The notes beneath the pieces are model-generated. The model was given only the letters and a program-made list of their open reading frames with translations, was not told the origin of the DNA and ran no database searches. Shown here piece by piece: positions 18,726-64,000 of a stretch of 64,000 nucleotides of DNA (positions are counted from its first letter, which is position 1; every line of letters starts with the position of its first letter). The stretch comes from Candidatus Margulisiibacteriota bacterium (GTDB taxonomy: Bacteria; Margulisbacteria; WOR-1; O2-12-FULL-45-9; XYB2-FULL-48-7): positions 35,828 through 99,827 of the forward strand of contig JBAZZV010000002.1 in assembly GCA_041658645.1 (NCBI GenBank), read 5' to 3'. The position numbers and the translations under genes were made by a program.

Positions 18726-18965
18726 CCTATTCAACTTTCTCTCACAAGTGATTATCATTGGCTTCTGTGGTAAATTTCACGTGATTTTTTTAAATGCGGG
18801 CAAATGGGGTTTGATTGGAAGAAAGCGGTAACGCTTATTCAAAAACTGGATCAGACCGTTTTTACCCTCCCGCTTGCTAACTCACCCCCAACTGTGGCTA
18901 TCAGGAAATCAGAGGATCAGCAAAAAGGATTTCAGGGTAACAGAAATCACACCTATTTTAACTAT

Positions 18966-30834: not shown

Positions 30835-31325
30835 CCGCGGTCGATCTTCCTGATCCGGCGTAGATGCCGGGCCTCGCCGGAAAACTGGGTCTTTAACCAG
30901 AGGGCTACTATTTTCAGCGCTTTGGCCGGCTGAACAGCGTGCCCGCCAAGACAGAGGACATTAGCATCACCATGTTCGCGGCTCTGCTTAGCGGTGTACT
31001 CACTGTAGGCATTGACCGCCCGGACCCCCCGGACCCGGTTGGCAGTGATCGTCACCCCTACTCCGGAACCACAAACCAGAATGCCGCGGGTGAACTTCTT
31101 TTTGGCGACCGCCCGGGCGACCGGATAGGCATAATCCGGGTAATCGCACGACTCGTCGGAGTACGTCCCAAAATCCTTGAAGACGATCTTCTTACCGGCT
31201 AAATATCGTTTAATCGCCTCTTTCAGTTTAAAGCCACCGTGGTCGGAACCGATTGCTATCTTCATAAACTTACCCCCAAAATGTAGGGACAGGGCTTGTC
31301 CCTGTCCGAATTTTCGGACAACCAC
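30831..31325 (-). CDS. rpiB: Ribose-5-phosphate isomerase B (RpiB/LacAB family).
   Basis: MKIAIGSDHGGFKLKE ... GILVCGSGVGVTITANR are the RpiB signatures. Confidence 0.85.
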   Translation of the reverse strand: MVVRKFGQGQALSLHFGGKFMKIAIGSDHGGFKLKEAIKRYLAGKKIVFKDFGTYSDESCDYPDYAYPVARAVAKKKFTRGILVCGSGVGVTITANRVRGVRAVNAYSEYTAKQSREHGDANVLCLGGHAVQPAKALKIVALWLKTQFSGEARHLRRIRKIDRG

Positions 31326-31336
31326 AAGGGTTGTCC

Positions 31337-32035
31337 CTACAATAATCCTTTCATTTCAGCAACAGCTTGCTTCAGCCCAACCACCACCGAGCGGGCGATG
31401 ATCGAAAAACCGATATTGAGCTCTTCGATCCCGGGAATGGCGGCAATCGGTTTGACGTTGTTATAATCGAGACCGTGACCGGCGTTGATCCGGAGCCCGA
31501 TCAGCCTCGCCTGCTGGGTCGCCACGCCGATCCGCTCTAAGTCCCGAGGCGATCCGATCCGGGCGTATTTCCCGGTATGCAGTTCGATAAAATCAGCCAT
31601 CAAGACCGCCGCCTCTTCCACCTGCTTCTTATCCGGCTCAATGAACAAGCTAACTAATATTCCAGCAGCTTGCAATTTTTGAATAATCTTCCTTATTTTG
31701 AAGTTTGAAGTTTGAGGTTTGAGGTTGAGTCCCCCCTCCGTAGTCAATTCCCGCCGTTTCTCTGGCACCAAGGTCACCATCTCCGGCTTGAGCTTGAGGG
31801 CGATCTTCTGCATCTCCGGCGTCGCCGCCATTTCGAGGTCGAGCCGGGTCGGCAATTCCCTTAAGCGGAAAACATCTTTGTCTTTGATGTGGCGGCGGTC
31901 TTCGCGCAGATGGCAGACTATCCCGTCAGCGCCGCCGGCGATCGCTTCAGCCGCCAGGGCGACCGGATCGGGAGTTGTTTCCTGTCGCGCCTCCCGCAAG
32001 GTGGCAATGTGGTCGATGTTTACGCCGAGTTTCAT
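31337..32035 (-). CDS. pdxJ: Pyridoxine 5'-phosphate synthase.
   Basis: MKLGVNIDHIATLREAR...GADGIVCHLREDRRHI...AGHGL are canonical PdxJ motifs. Confidence 0.9.
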   Translation of the reverse strand: MKLGVNIDHIATLREARQETTPDPVALAAEAIAGGADGIVCHLREDRRHIKDKDVFRLRELPTRLDLEMAATPEMQKIALKLKPEMVTLVPEKRRELTTEGGLNLKPQTSNFKIRKIIQKLQAAGILVSLFIEPDKKQVEEAAVLMADFIELHTGKYARIGSPRDLERIGVATQQARLIGLRINAGHGLDYNNVKPIAAIPGIEELNIGFSIIARSVVVGLKQAVAEMKGLL

Positions 32036-52525: not shown

Positions 52526-54007
52526 TTATTTATCCCCTCCGGCGCAGTAAACGAAATTGAAATAGCTCTGATAATATTTCGACCCCGACTGTATCGACTG
52601 GCTGCCATAAGCCAGAGCATAGCCATCGGCGGTCGAAGCGATCTGGGGAGGATCGTAATAAAAATTCCCATCCGTCTGCGCAACCGTCTGCGGAGAGCCG
52701 ATCAAGGTCAGATCTTGGGAAACGCGCGTAAATAAAACCGATCTCAAGCCGCTGTTGTCCTGCGGCCCGCTGGCGGCAACCCAAACCAGCCCAAATTCCT
52801 GCCGCTCCGGGCTCCAGACGATCGAAGGATCGAGGTTGCCCGCCGCCGAATCGGTAATGGTAACGTCTTTGGTTATCTGGCCGTTGCCCGATAAACCGGT
52901 TAAGTGCAGTTCGCTGTGGTCCCAGGCAATTTTCTTCGACCAGACGATCGCCGATTTATCGCCGGCTGACGCGATCGCCGGCATCGTCCCTATCCCGTAG
53001 TGGGGCGGCAGCAAAGGATGAATATTCAAACCGCTCGCGATAAGGATTTTGGGTTCGATCGGCACTCCCTCTTTGGTGATCATTTTTGCGTAAATCCCCG
53101 TATTTGCCGAAATCGGCAACGCATAATCGGTCCAGGTGATCGCAAAGCCCGCGGTCGTAGCCGCGATCGATGTCCCGGTCCGATTGTATGAATACTCCTC
53201 ATTGTTGGTTATGTTGATCTTTTCTCCCAGCGGCTTCCCTGACTTCGCTAACCGCAAAAAGTATATTTCAGGCGTACTAAGCCCGCCGTCCGGCCCAAAC
53301 TCTCTATCGTTCCACAATAAACCGTAACAGCCGCAGGCCTCCGACCAGGCGAGCGAAGGGTTATTGTCGCCAAACTGGAGCGTAAAAAGCTTCTGGCCTT
53401 GATCGAGTTTCTCGCCGGTTTGAGAAACGGAGAAGAAAGAGAGGTCCATCCCCTCGTTTCCCCAGACAACCCCGAATTTCTCGCCGTCCCAGGCCAGTGA
53501 GCTCGCCACAAACGTATTCATACTGAATGAACCCTGAAATTCCGTTTCCTTGTTTGTTTCTCCCAAGACCGTAAAAGGCCTGAAGCGGTTGCTGAAAACA
53601 TTATTTCTCATGTCGATCCAAGTCGCCGCGTAGGCTTGGCCATTTGAGGCCAGGGCCGGCATTAACTGCCTGGCCAGAGGATCGGCGGGATCGGCCGCCA
53701 GCGGAACTTCACCGGGGCCACAGACATGCGGCTTTGTATCAGGCTGAACATCGGGCATTATATCGGGTTGAACATCGGGCAGATTAATATCAAAGGGAGC
53801 ATCGGGAATATGGATATCCGGAGTAACATCGGGCTTATTAACATCCGGGATGACGGCATCCGGAACATGGTTATCCGGAACATGAATATCCGGCAGGCCG
53901 GCGTCTTCAGGCAATTGAACTATATTTTCATTATTGCCGATCACTTTCCCGCCGCAGTTAAGCAGTCCGGCCGCAACCAATCCCGCCCCTACGATCGTTC
54001 TTAGCAT
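52526..54007 (-). CDS. Secreted lipoprotein with N-terminal Pro/Asp-rich PD(x)3 repeats and a C-terminal beta-rich domain. The probable start is MLRTIVGAGLVAAGLLNCGG.
   Basis: Lipobox LLNCGG. Repeats IHVPDNHVPDAVIPDVNKPDVTPDIHIPD are encoded by imperfect 12-nt DNA tandem repeats at about 53720-53900. Confidence 0.65.
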   Translation of the reverse strand: MLRTIVGAGLVAAGLLNCGGKVIGNNENIVQLPEDAGLPDIHVPDNHVPDAVIPDVNKPDVTPDIHIPDAPFDINLPDVQPDIMPDVQPDTKPHVCGPGEVPLAADPADPLARQLMPALASNGQAYAATWIDMRNNVFSNRFRPFTVLGETNKETEFQGSFSMNTFVASSLAWDGEKFGVVWGNEGMDLSFFSVSQTGEKLDQGQKLFTLQFGDNNPSLAWSEACGCYGLLWNDREFGPDGGLSTPEIYFLRLAKSGKPLGEKINITNNEEYSYNRTGTSIAATTAGFAITWTDYALPISANTGIYAKMITKEGVPIEPKILIASGLNIHPLLPPHYGIGTMPAIASAGDKSAIVWSKKIAWDHSELHLTGLSGNGQITKDVTITDSAAGNLDPSIVWSPERQEFGLVWVAASGPQDNSGLRSVLFTRVSQDLTLIGSPQTVAQTDGNFYYDPPQIASTADGYALAYGSQSIQSGSKYYQSYFNFVYCAGGDK

Positions 54008-54266
54008 GCTTTTATTGGGCGCTGAAAAAGACCCCCTAACCTCCCTAACAACAGATCTGGTTAAAAGAGGCGCCATTTGCCGAACTGCTCCTAATAAACT
54101 CATTTTTTACTCCCCGGGACTGACTTATATGATCGAGGTCCAATTCAGTCCGGATATATATCCATGTGATCACAATAAAATTTCACCTTATTTAATATTA
54201 ATTTTTATGATAGAATAAAAGTTGGTCGGACCGGCTGATCTTATTAAATGGTAAAAGGAGAAAAAA

Positions 54267-55247
54267 ATGGCAAAGAAATTATACGAAGAATTGGGACTCG
54301 TCAATACCAGGGAAATGTTTAAAAAGGCGATGGCCGGGAAATACGCGGTGCCGGCCTACAACTTTAATAATATGGAGCAGCTGCAGGCGATCATCGGCGG
54401 CTGTGCCGAAAGCAATTCGCCGGTCATCATCCAGGTCTCGAGCGGCGCCCGGAAATACGCCAACCAGACCCTCCTCCGCTACATGGCCCAGGGAGCAATT
54501 GAGATGTGCCGGAAAGACCTGAAGAGCAATATTCCAGTCTGTCTCCACCTTGACCACGGCGATACTTTTGAACTCTGCAAATCGTGCATCGACTTCGGTT
54601 TCTCTTCGGTCATGATCGACGGCTCCAGCCACACTTACGAGGACAACATCAAGCTGACCAAGCAGGTCGTGGAATATGCCCGCCAGTTCGACGTCACGGT
54701 CGAAGGCGAGCTCGGTGTCCTGGCCGGCATCGAAGATGAGGTCAAAGCGGAAAAGCACACCTATACCGACCCGGCCCAGGTCGAGGATTTTGTCAAACGG
54801 ACCGGCGTTGATTCCCTGGCCATCTCGATCGGCACCTCGCATGGCGCCTACAAGTTCAAGGTCAAGCCGGGGGAATCGGTCCCCCCGCTCCGCTTCGATA
54901 TTTTAGCCGAAGTGGAAAAGAGATTGCCCGGCTTCCCTATTGTTCTGCACGGCGCCTCTTCCGTCGTCCAGGAATATGTCCAGATGATCAATAAGTTCGG
55001 CGGCAAGATGGATAACGCGGTCGGCATCCCCGAAGAACAGCTCCGCCGGGCGGCCCAATCGGCAGTCTGTAAGATCAACATCGACAGCGACGGCCGCCTC
55101 GTTATGACCGCGGTCATCCGCAAGGTCTTCGCCGAACAGCCGGGTGAATTCGATCCCAGAAAATATTTGGGACCGGCCAGAGAAGAACTAAAGAAATTGA
55201 TCGTGGCTAAGAACACGAACGTTCTCGGATCGGCGGGAAAGGGATAA
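54267..55247 (+). CDS. fba: Class II fructose-1,6-bisphosphate aldolase.
   Basis: YAVPAYNFNNMEQ..., LHLDHG, SIGTSHGAYKF and GASS are class II FBA zinc/catalytic motifs. Confidence 0.9.
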   Translation: MAKKLYEELGLVNTREMFKKAMAGKYAVPAYNFNNMEQLQAIIGGCAESNSPVIIQVSSGARKYANQTLLRYMAQGAIEMCRKDLKSNIPVCLHLDHGDTFELCKSCIDFGFSSVMIDGSSHTYEDNIKLTKQVVEYARQFDVTVEGELGVLAGIEDEVKAEKHTYTDPAQVEDFVKRTGVDSLAISIGTSHGAYKFKVKPGESVPPLRFDILAEVEKRLPGFPIVLHGASSVVQEYVQMINKFGGKMDNAVGIPEEQLRRAAQSAVCKINIDSDGRLVMTAVIRKVFAEQPGEFDPRKYLGPAREELKKLIVAKNTNVLGSAGKG

Positions 55248-55352
55248 CTCACCCCCCATCCCCCTCTCTTCCTAAGAGAGGGGGTGAAAACGCTCTTGAA
55301 AACTGAAGCCACCCCTTCTCTTAAAAAGAGAAGGGGGTCAGGGGGATGAGTT
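55248..55352. repeat. About 105-bp palindromic intergenic repeat element, copy A. It contains two GC hairpins (cccctctctt-NNNN-aagagagggg and ccttctctt-NNNN-aagagaagg) and also has inverted ends.
   Basis: About 95% identical to 56578-56683. It lies between the fba stop and the pfp RBS. Confidence 0.85.
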
Positions 55353-55368
55353 AAGAAGGAGCTAACAG

Positions 55369-56577
55369 ATGAAAGTTAAATTTCAAGGCAAAGAGATCAA
55401 TATCAAACGGATCGGCATCCTGACCGGCGGCGGCGATTGCGCCGGGCATAACGCGGTCATCGTCGGCCTCTTGCGCCGGATCAACCAGGCGAACCTCACC
55501 CTGCCGAAAGACGAGCAAATGGAGCTGGTCGGTTTACTTGAGGGGTGGAAGTCATTGACCCGCGATCCGGGGACCGAGCTCGACAAGATCGTTAAACCCT
55601 TGAGCCTGATTGATATCGAGGAATCTTTCACAGTAGCCGGCACTATTCTCAAGTCCTCCCGCACCAACCTCTTCTCCAAAGCCAATCTGGAAGCGAAAGC
55701 CCCGGAGAAAGCAATGGAGGCCTTGAAAAATCTGAAGATCGATTGCCTTTGTGTGCTGGGTGGTGACGATACGCTCGGCGCGGCCGGGAAACTGGGCCAG
55801 CAGTTCGTTTTCCCGATGTTCGGCGCCCCCAAGACTATGGACAACGACGTCTACGGGACCGAAATGACCTACGGCTTTGAATCGGCCGTCGAAGAATCGG
55901 TCCACTTTATCGAGAATATCCGGACGACCGCCGAATCCCATAATCGCTGTTTTATCGTTGAACTTCTCGGCCGCCATGCCGGCTGGGTCGCCATGTGGGC
56001 CGGGATCGCCGGCGGCGCCGAGGTCACCCTCCTCCCCGAAGAGGTCCTCGATATGGATAAAGTGATCAAGCAGGTGGAAAAGTCGATCGCCAAAAAGCAG
56101 CACTGCATTGTCGTTGTTTCTGAAGGGGCCCGTTTATTTGACACCCACTATCCTGACGAGATCAATAAGAAACACCAGAAGATGCTGGAAACGGTGATGG
56201 CCGATCCGAAATACGCCCTGGTCAAAGCGCGCCACGAGATGCCGAAGAAAAAAGACTCGTTCGGCAACGAACAGCTCGGCGGGATCGGCGAATATATTTT
56301 CGCTATCCTGGAAAAGCACACCAAGGGGTTTGAATACCGCTATCAGAACTGCGGCCACGCCATCCGCGGCGGGGTCGCCCATGTGATGGACCGGATCCTC
56401 GGTCTCCGCTATGGCGACGCGATCTTCAGTTTCATGAAAGAGGGAGTTTTTGGGGTCTATCCTGGCCTGGAGAACGACGTGATCATGTCGCGCAACCTGT
56501 TAGACGTTAAAGGCGGGCGCTTCGTCCCGCAAGACCATCAGCTCTACTCGATGCGCAACGCGGCCGACTACTATTAA
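55369..56577 (+). CDS. pfp: Pyrophosphate-dependent phosphofructokinase (PPi-PFK).
   Basis: GILTGGGDCAGHNAVI. GGDDT and PKTMDND (Asp104/Lys124 equivalents) are diagnostic of PPi rather than ATP dependence. Confidence 0.85.
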   Translation: MKVKFQGKEINIKRIGILTGGGDCAGHNAVIVGLLRRINQANLTLPKDEQMELVGLLEGWKSLTRDPGTELDKIVKPLSLIDIEESFTVAGTILKSSRTNLFSKANLEAKAPEKAMEALKNLKIDCLCVLGGDDTLGAAGKLGQQFVFPMFGAPKTMDNDVYGTEMTYGFESAVEESVHFIENIRTTAESHNRCFIVELLGRHAGWVAMWAGIAGGAEVTLLPEEVLDMDKVIKQVEKSIAKKQHCIVVVSEGARLFDTHYPDEINKKHQKMLETVMADPKYALVKARHEMPKKKDSFGNEQLGGIGEYIFAILEKHTKGFEYRYQNCGHAIRGGVAHVMDRILGLRYGDAIFSFMKEGVFGVYPGLENDVIMSRNLLDVKGGRFVPQDHQLYSMRNAADYY

Positions 56578-56683
56578 CTCACCCCCCATCCCCCTCTCTT
56601 AAAAAGAGAGGGGGTGAAAACGCTCTTGGAAACTGAAGCCTCCCCCTTCTCTTTCTAAGAGAAGGGGGTCAGGGGGATGAGTT
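56578..56683. repeat. About 105-bp palindromic intergenic repeat element, copy B, positioned as a bidirectional terminator between the convergent pfp and pfkA genes.
   Basis: Near-identical to copy A in direct orientation. The two hairpin loops (cta/aaaa) are swapped relative to copy A. Confidence 0.85.
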
Positions 56684-56693
56684 AGAGAGTGAG

Positions 56694-57668
56694 TTACGTG
56701 GCCAACATATTCGCCAGCTTGTAGGCGGCGAGATCGATCTTCTTCTTGCGGCGGATGATCTCTTCGGTCGGTGTTTCGATGATCTTGTCCGACTGGATCC
56801 CGACCATCAGCGCTCCTTTACCCTCGATCAGCAACTGCACGGCCCGCGCCCCTAATTTACAGGCGACTTCGCGCGACAGCGCCGTCGGCGACCCGCCCCG
56901 CTGGATATGGCCGAGGATAGAGACCCGGACGTCCAGGGTAGTCTTCTTCTTCAAAGCCGCGGCTACATCGTGCGCTTTGGCCGCCCCTTCCGCCACCACC
57001 ACGATAAAACTGGATTTACCGCGCTGTTGGCCGTAGCGGAGCTTTTGGCCGATAGCGTCCAGGTTAAAGGCCACTTCAGGGATGATGATCGCTTCGGCCC
57101 CGGCCGTCAGACCGACGTCAAGAGCGATGAAACCGTTATACCGCCCCATCACTTCGATGACAAAGACCCGCTCATGAGAAGTGGCCGTATCACGGATCTT
57201 GTCGATCGCTTCGACCGCCGTATTGACCGCGGTGTCAAAGCCGATGCTGTAGTCGGTGCCGTAAATGTCGTTATCGATCGAGGCCGGGATATTGATCGTC
57301 GGCAGATCGTATTCCTTGTAAAGTTCGTGCGCGGCGCGCAACGAGCCGTCGCCGCCGATCACGACCAGCCCTTCAATATTATAAGCGCGGAGGTTGTCGA
57401 ACGCCTTCTTGCGCATCGCTTTCTGGGCGAACTCGGGACAGCGGTGGGTATGAAGGATCGTCCCTCCCCGGTTGATGATCCCGCCGACCGTGCTAAGTTC
57501 CATGTTAATGATCTTGCCGTCGATCATCCCCTGCCAGCCCCGTTCAATGCCGTAGATCTTCAAGCCGTTATAGATCGCCGTCCGCACTACCGCCCGAATG
57601 GCGGTATTCATCCCCGGCGCATCGCCACCTGGCGTCAGAACTCCGATAGTTTTAATTTTCTTACTCAT
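56694..57668 (-). CDS. pfkA: ATP-dependent 6-phosphofructokinase.
   Basis: GVLTPGGDAPGMNTAIR, GGDGS and PASIDNDIYGTD (Gly104/Gly124 type). Confidence 0.9.
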   Translation of the reverse strand: MSKKIKTIGVLTPGGDAPGMNTAIRAVVRTAIYNGLKIYGIERGWQGMIDGKIINMELSTVGGIINRGGTILHTHRCPEFAQKAMRKKAFDNLRAYNIEGLVVIGGDGSLRAAHELYKEYDLPTINIPASIDNDIYGTDYSIGFDTAVNTAVEAIDKIRDTATSHERVFVIEVMGRYNGFIALDVGLTAGAEAIIIPEVAFNLDAIGQKLRYGQQRGKSSFIVVVAEGAAKAHDVAAALKKKTTLDVRVSILGHIQRGGSPTALSREVACKLGARAVQLLIEGKGALMVGIQSDKIIETPTEEIIRRKKKIDLAAYKLANMLAT

Positions 57669-63624: not shown

Positions 63625-64000
63625 GGAATGTTATCCCAAATACTTCCTGGAAGCCTTTCACTAGCGCGGTCGAGAGCTCCTCAACCGATGGTGTCCGGCC
63701 GAGGAGCTCCTCAAGGCTGATCGCGTTGAGCAAATCGTGGCTCTTTTTCAACAACTCGAAGGCAGAAGACGGTGTTGGGCAAACGAAGATCGAACCTTGC
63801 TGCAACAAAGCTACTTTTCCCCTTTTCTGCGCGCTGCCAACGATCTTTCGCCCGTCAACAACTATCTCATATTCTGCCGGATAAGAGAAACATAAACTCC
63901 TCACCCCTTTCTTTCGACTATCGTCGAAATTCATTCCCCTCTCCATCGGAGATGGAGAGGGGTGCCGAGCGCCAGCGAGGCGGGGTGAGGATTGCGCAAC
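63614..64000 (-). CDS. Lipoate/octanoyl-protein ligase family (BPL_LplA_LipB) gene, 5'-partial. The ORF is open to the window end.
   Basis: GRKIVGSAQKRGKVALLQQGSI matches the K-I-x-G-S-A-Q motif of LplA/LipB. The reading frame continues without a stop to nt 64000. Confidence 0.6.
   Translation of the reverse strand, partial: VAQSSPRLAGARHPSPSPMERGMNFDDSRKKGVRSLCFSYPAEYEIVVDGRKIVGSAQKRGKVALLQQGSIFVCPTPSSAFELLKKSHDLLNAISLEELLGRTPSVEELSTALVKGFQEVFGITFHEV

What the first reader, a model, noticed from the sequence alone, without database searches (positions are those of the whole stretch)
55248..56683. PPi-dependent PFK gene bracketed by two direct copies of a ~105-bp double-hairpin palindromic repeat, next to a convergent ATP-PFK
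Copies at 55248-55352 and 56578-56683 are about 95% identical. Each contains two GC-rich hairpins with swapped loops and inverted outer ends, which is REP/MITE-like. They exactly flank pfp, which carries the GGDDT/PKTMDND signature of PPi dependence. Immediately downstream and convergent is a canonical ATP-PFK (GGDGS / G124). A related hairpin (cccctctccatcggagatggagagggg) lies at 63944-63970. The arrangement suggests pfp was acquired or mobilised as a cassette between repeat elements. The repeats also serve as terminators (bidirectional for copy B). Two PFK types side by side implies switchable ATP/PPi glycolytic control.
Basis: seen in the sequence. Interest (0 to 1): 0.6.

Follow-up and report, generated by a model that had tools for sequence, protein, structure and literature searches.

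The report
Mobile palindromic repeats flanking pfp gene
Two copies of a small hairpin-forming mobile repeat inserted on either side of an old, vertically inherited phosphofructokinase gene (it is not an imported cassette), and the repeat belongs to a family spread over many bacterial phyla that almost always surrounds a small nuclease gene of unknown function (DUF559).

Summary
Two direct copies of a ~109-nt palindromic unit lie at 55245-55353 and 56575-56684, with 101 of 110 aligned positions identical. Each starts on the TAA stop codon of fba or pfp. They are the only copies in the 64-kb window.

The cassette interpretation is refuted. The pfp gene has 71-94% identical orthologues throughout Margulisiibacteriota/Saganbacteria. 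TIM-fba-pfp synteny is kept in all relatives examined. Seven relatives have an fba-pfp spacer of only 3-17 nt with no repeat. No relative has a repeat after pfp. Removing each unit together with one flanking TA restores the ancestral stop-codon/ribosome-binding-site junction. Two other lineages carry a solo half-unit at the same fba-pfp junction.

The unit belongs to a family with conserved AACTCA(C/T)CCCCC termini and CCCCCT(T)CTCTT hairpins. I found it in more than 50 genomes from at least 12 phyla. In those loci the only recurrent neighbouring gene is a ~115-aa DUF559 (Vsr-like) nuclease. In the reciprocal test, 70 of 80 DUF559 loci chosen by protein similarity alone carry family half-units within 250 nt. 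The repeats are therefore REP/MITE-like non-autonomous elements with a probable, apparently undescribed, DUF559 partner. No canonical terminator feature is present. PPi-dependence of pfp rests on motifs only.

The parts
55245..55353 (+). Copy A of the palindromic unit. It comprises a C-type half (55245-55287: TAACTCAC + CCCCCTCTCTT hairpin), a 26-nt spacer, and an inverted T-type half (55310-55353: CCCCTTCTCTT hairpin + ATGAGTTA). Its first three bases are the fba stop codon.
56575..56684 (+). Copy B, in the same orientation and architecture as A. Its first three bases are the pfp stop codon. It ends 9 nt before the stop codon of the convergent pfkA.
54267..55247 (+). Class II fructose-bisphosphate aldolase (fba). 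It has the same length as in relatives, so the position of its stop codon is unchanged by the insertion.
55355..55361 (+). GAAGGAG ribosome-binding site of pfp, directly after copy A. In relatives without the unit it follows the fba stop codon directly.
55369..56577 (+). The 402-aa PFK ('pfp') with GGDD / PKTMDND motifs. It is ancestral at this position in the clade.
56694..57668 (-). ATP-dependent 6-phosphofructokinase (pfkA), convergent with pfp.
63899..63990 (-). Diverged relative of the unit: CCTCACCCC ... CCCCTCTCCATC/GATGGAGAGGGG hairpin ... GGGGTGAGG. It is inserted in frame in a lipoate-protein-ligase-like gene that runs off the window end.

Best explanation
The two repeats are non-autonomous copies of a small palindromic mobile element of the REP/REPIN or MITE type. 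They inserted separately, after the fba-pfp-pfkA arrangement already existed, at the TA of the stop codons of fba and pfp. Copy B is most likely a local copy of A. This part is shown by comparison with relatives.

The element belongs to a cross-phylum family. Each half-unit has an AACTCA(C/T)CCCCC head followed by a CCCCCT(T)CTCTT/AAGAGA(A)GGGGG hairpin. Two halves in inverted orientation make a unit. This is shown.

The family is tightly linked to genes for a ~115-aa DUF559 nuclease (Vsr-like, PD-(D/E)XK). These genes sit between or beside half-units, much as RAYT genes sit among REPs. The association is shown.

I infer that this nuclease acts on the hairpin-bearing ends and is what propagates both its own gene and the short units in trans. 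The chemistry is unknown.

At this locus the insertions split a formerly tight fba-pfp junction of 3-17 nt. They place very stable hairpins between fba and pfp and between the convergent pfp and pfkA. These may act like REPs on mRNA stability or read-through. That is inferred and untested.
For: Structure and significance of the units.

Late insertion:
- The fba-pfp spacer is 4 nt in L122 (pfp 94% identical), 17 nt in L124, L126, L211, L218 and L220, and 3 nt in L213. None of these has a unit.
- The window sequence minus the unit and one TA reads TAAGAAGGAGCTAACAGATG, against TAAGAAAGGAAGAATAGGATATG in L124. The predicted ancestral pfp stop, TAG, is what L124 has.
- No relative has a unit after pfp. 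L215-217 carry only a solo half at the fba stop, and L222-224 carry a solo half 2 nt after it. The two sites therefore have different histories.
- The pfp orthologues (71-94% identical) are, where named, from Margulisiibacteriota/Saganbacteria/WOR-1, with one labelled Omnitrophota and a few only 'bacterium'.

Family:
- An exact-pattern scan found 119 stretches in about 55 MAGs of at least 12 phyla, some on contigs of 1-3.5 Mb. My arithmetic gives about 0.3 expected by chance.
- Two half types are strictly linked: ACTCAC with C5TCTCTT 48:0, and ACTCAT with C5TTCTCTT 51:1, Fisher p = 5e-28.
- 24 of 161 TAA termini serve as the stop codon of an ORF of at least 100 codons, against 7-8 in the other two frames.

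DUF559 link:
- It is the only neighbour family shared across genomes in the pattern-derived loci: 6 loci by ORF clustering and 8 by tblastn.
- Reciprocal test: of 80 metagenome loci chosen by DUF559 protein similarity alone, 70 have a half-unit within 250 nt and 55 have one on both sides.
- 125 strong hits lie within +-300 nt of the ORFs (72 kb), against 2 in the other 227 kb. Flanking genes differ between loci.
- The ORFs keep invariant D61, D74 and H78.
- An independent survey found DUF559 CDSs enriched (odds ratio 14) among genes associated with inverted repeats (PMC9881135).
Against: - No DUF559 gene is present in the 64-kb window or in the seven Margulisiibacteriota/Saganbacteria loci that carry the family. 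A partner in this genome is therefore not shown.
- Only two copies are seen in 64 kb and none in 4 x 21 kb of relatives. Multi-copy status in the source genome is unproven.
- The orientation of the half-units next to DUF559 is mixed: +- 18, -- 14, -+ 9, ++ 7. No family-wide target-site duplication or target motif was found. A classical TIR cut-and-paste transposon therefore does not fit well.
- A PD-(D/E)XK nuclease alone is not a known transposase.
- The association could run the other way, with the nuclease gene homing into the palindromes.
- Both copies flanking one gene has only about a 4% chance for two random sites in 64 kb (my arithmetic). I attribute this to local copying without proof.
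Confidence: 0.72

Rival explanations
1. pfp is a cassette. The two direct repeats are the ends of a composite mobile unit (MITE pair or integron-like) that brought pfp in or can move it.
For: Two direct, 92% identical copies exactly bracket one gene, and they are the only copies in 64 kb. In some other genomes DUF559 genes are bracketed by two complete units in the same way.
Against: TIM-fba-pfp synteny holds in all 10 relatives' pfp variants looked up, with pfp 73-94% identical and mostly no repeats. Orthologues are, where named, almost all from the same clade. The A site is occupied without the B site in L215-217 and L222-224. Removing each unit on its own restores a normal junction. The attC core sites RYYYAAC/GTTRRRY are not present at the ends.
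Confidence: 0.03
2. The hairpins are host regulatory elements kept by selection at this operon. They would act as intercistronic mRNA stabilisers or attenuators that uncouple fba from pfp expression and insulate the convergent pfp/pfkA transcripts. Their mobile origin would be secondary.
For: Units or solo halves occupy the same fba-pfp junction in three lineages that are separated by empty-site relatives. The folds are very stable, -63 to -71 kcal/mol. The ribosome-binding site is preserved right after copy A. REPs are reported to stabilise upstream mRNA and to supply stop codons (PMC3733652).
Against: No T-run or terminator call is present. At least seven relatives do without any element. 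No expression data exist. Recurrent occupation can equally reflect an insertion hot spot, since the target TAAGAAAGGA resembles the unit's own TAAGAGAGG arm.
Confidence: 0.2
3. The direction of dependence is reversed. The short palindromic units are the homing targets of a free-standing DUF559 homing-endonuclease gene that inserts into them, and the units spread by some other, unidentified means.
For: Vsr-like nucleases are established homing endonucleases (PMC2677866 and PMC3239194; PMC3424549). In 18 loci the ORF lies between two inward-facing halves, giving 455-714-bp units. That is what insertion into the centre of a unit would produce.
Against: Many loci have outward-facing or same-direction halves next to the ORF. 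No second enzyme family recurs next to the units. No RAYT-like motif was found.
Confidence: 0.2
4. The two copies arose by a local duplication or gene conversion of an intergenic hairpin. They would not be a mobile element at all.
For: There are only two copies in the window, they are close together, and they are 92% identical.
Against: The same head-plus-hairpin sequence occurs in more than 50 genomes of many phyla in unrelated contexts. Both insertions have precise boundaries at TA.
Confidence: 0.02

Closest known systems
REP/REPIN elements and their RAYT (Y1 HUH) transposases
   Same: Each short unit has an unpaired conserved 'tag' followed by a stem-loop. Two such halves in inverted orientation form a ~100-nt long hairpin. 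The elements are extragenic and their termini often supply stop codons. Solo units and clusters both occur. The partner gene is small and immediately flanked by the repeats in variable orientation.
   Different: The tag is AACTCA(C/T), not GTAG or CGTC. The associated gene is a DUF559 PD-(D/E)XK nuclease, not a Y1 transposase, and no RAYT motif was found in 119 loci. The same repeat sequence is shared across phyla, whereas REPINs are lineage-specific and vertically inherited.
Bacterial MITEs (Correia/NEMIS of Neisseria, Nezha, RUP, ERIC)
   Same: The units are 60-130 bp, non-coding, and have terminal inverted repeats. They insert next to genes. The two window copies are flanked by TA, as Correia elements are. 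They fold into stable RNA hairpins. Longer relatives with the same ends carry an ORF.
   Different: There is no DDE transposase partner. No family-wide target-site duplication was found. There is no sequence similarity to these families. Half-units occur alone and in tandem arrays.
Vsr-like homing endonucleases (I-Bth0305I / EDxHD family) and free-standing homing endonuclease genes
   Same: They share the same nuclease superfamily clade (Vsr, DUF559, DUF2726; PMC3424549). They are small selfish genes found in many contexts.
   Different: Known members reside in group I introns or between split inteins. They are not flanked by dispersed palindromic repeats, and no short non-coding derivatives are known.
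Rickettsia palindromic elements (RPE)
   Same: The diverged copy at 63899-63990 is inserted in frame in a conserved enzyme gene and adds a peptide loop.
   Different: The sequence family and host range are different. The two pfp-flanking copies are intergenic.

Membership tests
REP/REPIN-RAYT system | Conserved unpaired GTAG or CGTC tetranucleotide next to a 20-40-nt palindrome | tested here: not met
   The head is (T)AACTCA(C/T)CCCCC and contains no GTAG or CGTC. The criterion is taken from PMC3733652.
REP/REPIN-RAYT system | Two REPs in inverted orientation forming a long hairpin (REPIN) | tested here: met
   Two halves fold as one hairpin, z from -6.5 to -8.2. The same architecture appears in other genomes.
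REP/REPIN-RAYT system | Associated Y1 (HUH) RAYT gene flanked by the repeats | tested here: not met
   No HUH...NPxRAGL-type ORF was found in the window or in the loci fetched up to that call. The recurrent neighbour is DUF559 instead. Whole genomes were not searched.
MITE | Terminal inverted repeats, small size, no coding capacity | tested here: met
   Termini are TAACTCAC... and ...ATGAGTTA, and the units are 109-110 nt.
MITE | Target-site duplication | tested here: inconclusive
   Both window copies are flanked by TA, and the empty sites of relatives fit a TA duplication. Across the family the outer base is variable and no duplication is evident.
MITE | Autonomous relative with the same ends that encodes a transposase | tested here: inconclusive
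   455-714-bp units with the same ends enclose a DUF559 ORF. However, end orientation is mixed, and DUF559 is not a known transposase.
MITE | Many copies per genome | not testable with these tools
   There are 2 copies in 64 kb. The rest of the source genome is not available. Other genomes show 5-15 exact-pattern loci each.
Integron attC / gene cassette | R''(RYYYAAC)...R'(GTTRRRY) core sites, with cassettes absent from relatives | tested here: not met
   The flanks GGGATAAC/GTTAAGA and TATTAAC/GTTAGAG do not fit, and the pairing runs inward from AAC/GTT. The pfp gene is syntenic in relatives.
Intrinsic (rho-independent) terminator | GC-rich hairpin followed directly by a T-run | tested here: not met
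   None of the terminator-like sites called lies at either unit. The sequence after the hairpins is GATGAGTTAAGAAGG or GATGAGTTAGAGAG.
DUF559 / Vsr-like PD-(D/E)XK nucleases (partner gene in other genomes) | Match to PF04480 and to a solved member, with conserved acidic and His residues | tested here: met
   PF04480 matches at E = 1.2e-23. PDB 3HRL matches at E = 1.5e-20. D61, D74 and H78 are invariant.
PPi-dependent phosphofructokinase | Asp at E. coli position 104 (GGDD) and Lys at position 124 (PKTxDND) | tested here: met
   The protein reads GGDDT and APKTMDND. That these residues indicate PPi use is established knowledge recalled by me, not tested here.
PPi-dependent phosphofructokinase | Score above the cut-off of a curated PPi-PFK model | tested here: not met
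   The protein is below all NCBIfam cut-offs. Its best match is TIGR02483 PFK_mixed at 276 bits against a cut-off of 430.

The most novel reading that the evidence does not exclude
DUF559 is a very large family known only as 'endonuclease domain-containing' or 'Vsr-like' protein. In this reading it is the mobility nuclease of a previously unrecognised class of tiny (about 0.5 kb) selfish elements with hairpin-bearing ends. The short palindromic derivatives of these elements, including the two units flanking pfp, have spread with near-identical end sequences through at least a dozen bacterial phyla. This would be a REP/RAYT-like partnership built on a PD-(D/E)XK nuclease instead of a HUH or DDE enzyme.
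Probability: 0.4. Interest if true: 0.8.

Novelty: new variant of a known kind. Interest (0 to 1): 0.6.

Why it matters
For this locus, the result removes a tempting story of horizontal acquisition of PPi-PFK as a cassette. It replaces it with ordinary intergenic colonisation of a conserved glycolytic gene cluster.

The wider point is more interesting. The repeat gives a concrete genomic context, and so a testable function, for DUF559. The search here returned at least 7,263 protein clusters, none with an informative name. The literature I could search contains no link between DUF559 and repeats.

If the nuclease mobilises these units, it would be a new enzyme-repeat partnership alongside RAYT-REPIN and transposase-MITE. 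It would also be unusual in that its end sequences are conserved across phyla. The recurrent presence of units at the fba-pfp junction in three lineages offers a natural experiment on whether such hairpins tune operon expression.

Tried and rejected
- Rfam: the only hits are sub-threshold matches to eukaryotic miRNA-precursor models, that is, generic long hairpins.
- Weaker matches to the terminus at 18878, 22604 and 25294 are chance. No hairpin follows them, and 2.6 such matches are expected.
- Full-text search for the terminus sequences returned only primers.
- A general TA target-site duplication is not supported family-wide.
- I considered that a conserved T:G mismatch in the outer stem could be the signal for a Vsr-like nuclease. 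The window units have a C-type plus a T-type half, which fits. However, many DUF559-flanking pairs are C-type on both sides, so the idea is not general.
- A motif search for a RAYT partner found nothing.
- Pairs of ends 0.3-6 kb apart enclosing a gene gave only two cases in the genome loci. One of them, L102, led to DUF559.
- Phage carriage: 1 match in 2.9 million viral contigs.
- The first clustering of neighbouring ORFs used a minimum of 150 aa and found only generic families (kinases, T9SS proteins, SDRs). It missed DUF559 because of the length cut-off.
- An integron attC reading was rejected on the core-site test.
- Loop inversion as the origin of the 'swapped loops' does not fit, because the spacer keeps its orientation.

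Full report
**What is there**

Reading 55000-57000 and the repeat search show two direct copies of a palindromic unit. Copy A is at 55245-55353 and copy B at 56575-56684.

- Each copy begins with TAACTCACCCCCC and ends with GGGGGATGAGTTA, so the termini are inverted repeats.
- Each contains two perfect hairpins. The first is CCCCCTCTCTT-NNN-AAGAGAGGGGG and the second is CCCC(C)TTCTCTT-NNN-AAGAGAAGGGG(G). This gave 4 matches, against 0 in 100 shuffles.
- The two halves are also complementary to each other, so the unit folds as one long hairpin. Energies are -63.8 and -62.6 kcal/mol on the + strand and -70.9 and -69.4 on the - strand, with z from -6.5 to -8.2.
- A and B are identical at 101 of 110 aligned columns. 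Six of the nine differences sit in the two 3-nt loops.
- The first TAA of A is the stop codon of a class II fructose-bisphosphate aldolase gene (54267-55247). The first TAA of B is the stop codon of a 402-aa PFK gene (55369-56577).
- A convergent ATP-PFK gene (56694-57668) ends 9 nt beyond B.
- A profile HMM of the half-unit finds only these four halves in the 64-kb window.
- Rfam has no family for the unit.

**The cassette idea fails**

The window is identical to two ENA metagenome contigs.

The PFK has orthologues of 71-94% identity. Where named, these are from Margulisiibacteriota, Saganbacteria or WOR-1, apart from one labelled Omnitrophota and a few labelled only 'bacterium'.

I fetched the locus for ten such orthologues. 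TIM-fba-pfp is conserved in all of them.

- Seven have no unit. The fba-pfp spacer is 4 nt (L122, pfp 94%), 3 nt (L213) or 17 nt (L124, L126, L211, L218, L220).
- Deleting copy A plus one TA from the window gives ...GGGATAAGAAGGAGCTAACAGATG. This aligns with ...GGCTTAAGAAAGGAAGAATAGGATATG of L124.
- Deleting copy B plus one TA gives a pfp ending in TAG. That is the stop codon L124 actually uses.
- No relative has a unit after pfp. That position is variable. It holds nothing, an extra ORF, a HicAB pair or a PIN/HTH pair.
- L215-217 (pfp 90%) carry a solo half-unit exactly on the fba stop codon. L222-224 (pfp 73%) carry one 2 nt after it.

The gene is therefore ancestral here. The two insertions have separate histories, and the fba-pfp junction has been colonised repeatedly.

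**The family**

I scanned one genome per species with the exact pattern TAACTCAYCCCCCN{2,3}CCCCCTYYYYT. It returned 119 stretches, where I calculate about 0.3 expected by chance.

- The hits are in about 55 MAGs. These include Margulisiibacteriota/WOR-1/Saganbacteria, Bacteroidota, several Patescibacteria, Cloacimonadota, Spirochaetota, Calditrichota, KSB1, Ignavibacteriales, Fibrobacterota, Sericytochromatia, Proteobacteria and others.
- Some hits lie on contigs of 1-3.5 Mb.
- Units range from about 57-nt single hairpins, through 90-130-nt double hairpins, to longer forms. Solo halves and tandem arrays also occur.
- Loops are hypervariable while heads and stems are conserved.
- Two half types are strictly linked. 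ACTCAC goes with C5-TCTCTT (48:0) and ACTCAT with C5-TTCTCTT (51:1), Fisher p = 5e-28. The window units are C-half plus inverted T-half.
- The terminal TAA is the in-frame stop of an ORF of at least 100 codons in 24 of 161 ends. The control frames give 7-8. REPs behave similarly (PMC3733652).
- No family-wide target duplication or target motif emerged.
- Only one match exists in 2.9 million viral contigs.

**The partner gene**

One long 'unit' in L102 encloses a 122-aa ORF that is a DUF559 protein (PF04480, E = 1.2e-23).

Homologues lie directly beside units in 8 of the pattern-derived loci. Among ORFs within 150 nt of a unit, DUF559 is the only family shared across genomes. An earlier clustering with a 150-aa cut-off had missed it.

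For the reciprocal test I aligned six of these proteins and retrieved 80 metagenome loci by protein similarity alone.

- 70 loci have a half-unit within 250 nt of the ORF, and 55 have one on both sides.
- 125 strong hits fall within +-300 nt of the ORFs (72 kb). Only 2 fall in the remaining 227 kb.
- Flanking genes differ among loci.
- Median gaps between the nearest half-unit and the ORF are 42 nt upstream and 29 nt downstream.
- The nearest halves face inward in 18 loci. A separate tally at slightly looser settings found 33 such ORF-enclosing pairs of 455-714 bp. Other orientations are common. This looks more like RAYT genes among REPs than like a strict TIR transposon.

The proteins keep invariant D61, D74 and H78. 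Their only solved relative is 3HRL, an 'endonuclease-like protein'. DUF559 is classed with Vsr and the I-Bth0305I-type homing endonucleases (PMC3424549).

The subfamily is large. At least 7,263 clusters matched, and many are on very short contigs. A full-text search for DUF559 found no paper linking it to repeats or mobility. One survey lists DUF559 CDSs as enriched among genes associated with inverted repeats (PMC9881135).

**Mechanism**

Shown:
- Insertion of the units occurred after the gene order was established.
- The insertions have precise TA-flanked boundaries.
- The units belong to a dispersed cross-phylum family.
- The family is statistically overwhelmingly associated with DUF559 genes.

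Inferred:
- DUF559 recognises and cuts the hairpin-bearing ends and so propagates the units in trans.
- Copy B arose from A by local copying.
- The hairpins affect transcript stability or read-through.

No T-run follows either unit, and the terminator scan calls nothing there.

No DUF559 gene is in this window or in the seven related-clade loci that carry the family. The partner for this genome is therefore unproven.

**The other claims**

The hairpin near the window end is at 63936-63962. It is the core of a diverged unit (63899-63990) that lies in frame inside a lipoate-protein-ligase-like gene.

- A relative without it (L124) has a shorter loop.
- Another relative (L126) has a version of the same element in the opposite orientation, also in frame.
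- Because the hairpin is palindromic, both encode ...SPSP/SMMERG....
- Its subterminal TGCCGAGCGCCAGCGAGGCGGGGTGAGG resembles the right end of the Margulisiibacteriota unit in L003.

The PFK has GGDD and PKTMDND. It falls below every curated NCBIfam cut-off, so PPi use is a prediction only.

The ATP-PFK has Ala, not Gly, at the position of E. coli G124.

Noticed in passing
window 63899-63990 (gene 63614 to beyond 64000, - strand; L001 18246-19016): A diverged unit of the same superfamily is inserted in frame in a lipoate-protein-ligase-like gene and adds about 26 residues relative to L124. L126 has the element at the same site in the opposite orientation, also in frame. L124 lacks it. This is RPE-like behaviour.
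   Followed up: partly
window 31282-31341: A different ~60-nt double-hairpin palindrome, TGTAGGGACAGGGCTTGTCCCTGTCC...GGACAACC..GGTTGTCCCTACA, lies between two minus-strand genes. It carries GTAG/CTAC at its ends, like a classical GTAG-tagged REP doublet (REPIN).
   Followed up: no
L215 2708-2750; L222 2433-2475 (fba-pfp junction of relatives): Solo C-type half-units sit at the same fba-pfp junction in two other lineages. The empty target TAAGAAAGGA resembles the unit's own TAAGAGAGG arm, which may explain a hot spot.
   Followed up: partly
L082 6167-8000, L087, L030, L161, L163 (other genomes): Tandem arrays of half-units occur in direct orientation, with periods of about 104 nt, 267 nt or about 60 nt. 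Some lie on both sides of a DUF559 gene.
   Followed up: no
L081 7250-7666; L084 2969-3376: Some DUF559 ORFs have lost their own stop codon and read into the adjacent unit. This adds tails such as ...THPPAPSLHEERG.
   Followed up: no
downstream of pfp in relatives (L122 11250-12197, L126 11206-11868, L213 4213-4965, L218 3716-4160, L222 3703-4402): The pfp 3' flank is a variable spot. It holds unrelated small genes, including HicAB and PIN/HTH toxin-antitoxin pairs and a DUF6036 gene. pfkA is therefore not always adjacent to pfp.
   Followed up: partly
L209 203-722 and L210 167-686: In one population carrying the P0005 pfp variant, the fba-pfp spacer holds an unrelated ~520-bp insert with its own terminator-like hairpin. 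Another population with the identical pfp protein (L211) has the 17-nt spacer.
   Followed up: no
window 53736-53845 (inside ORF 52526-54103, - strand): Four imperfect tandem copies of a 24-27-nt period lie within a 525-aa ORF that has no Pfam match.
   Followed up: no
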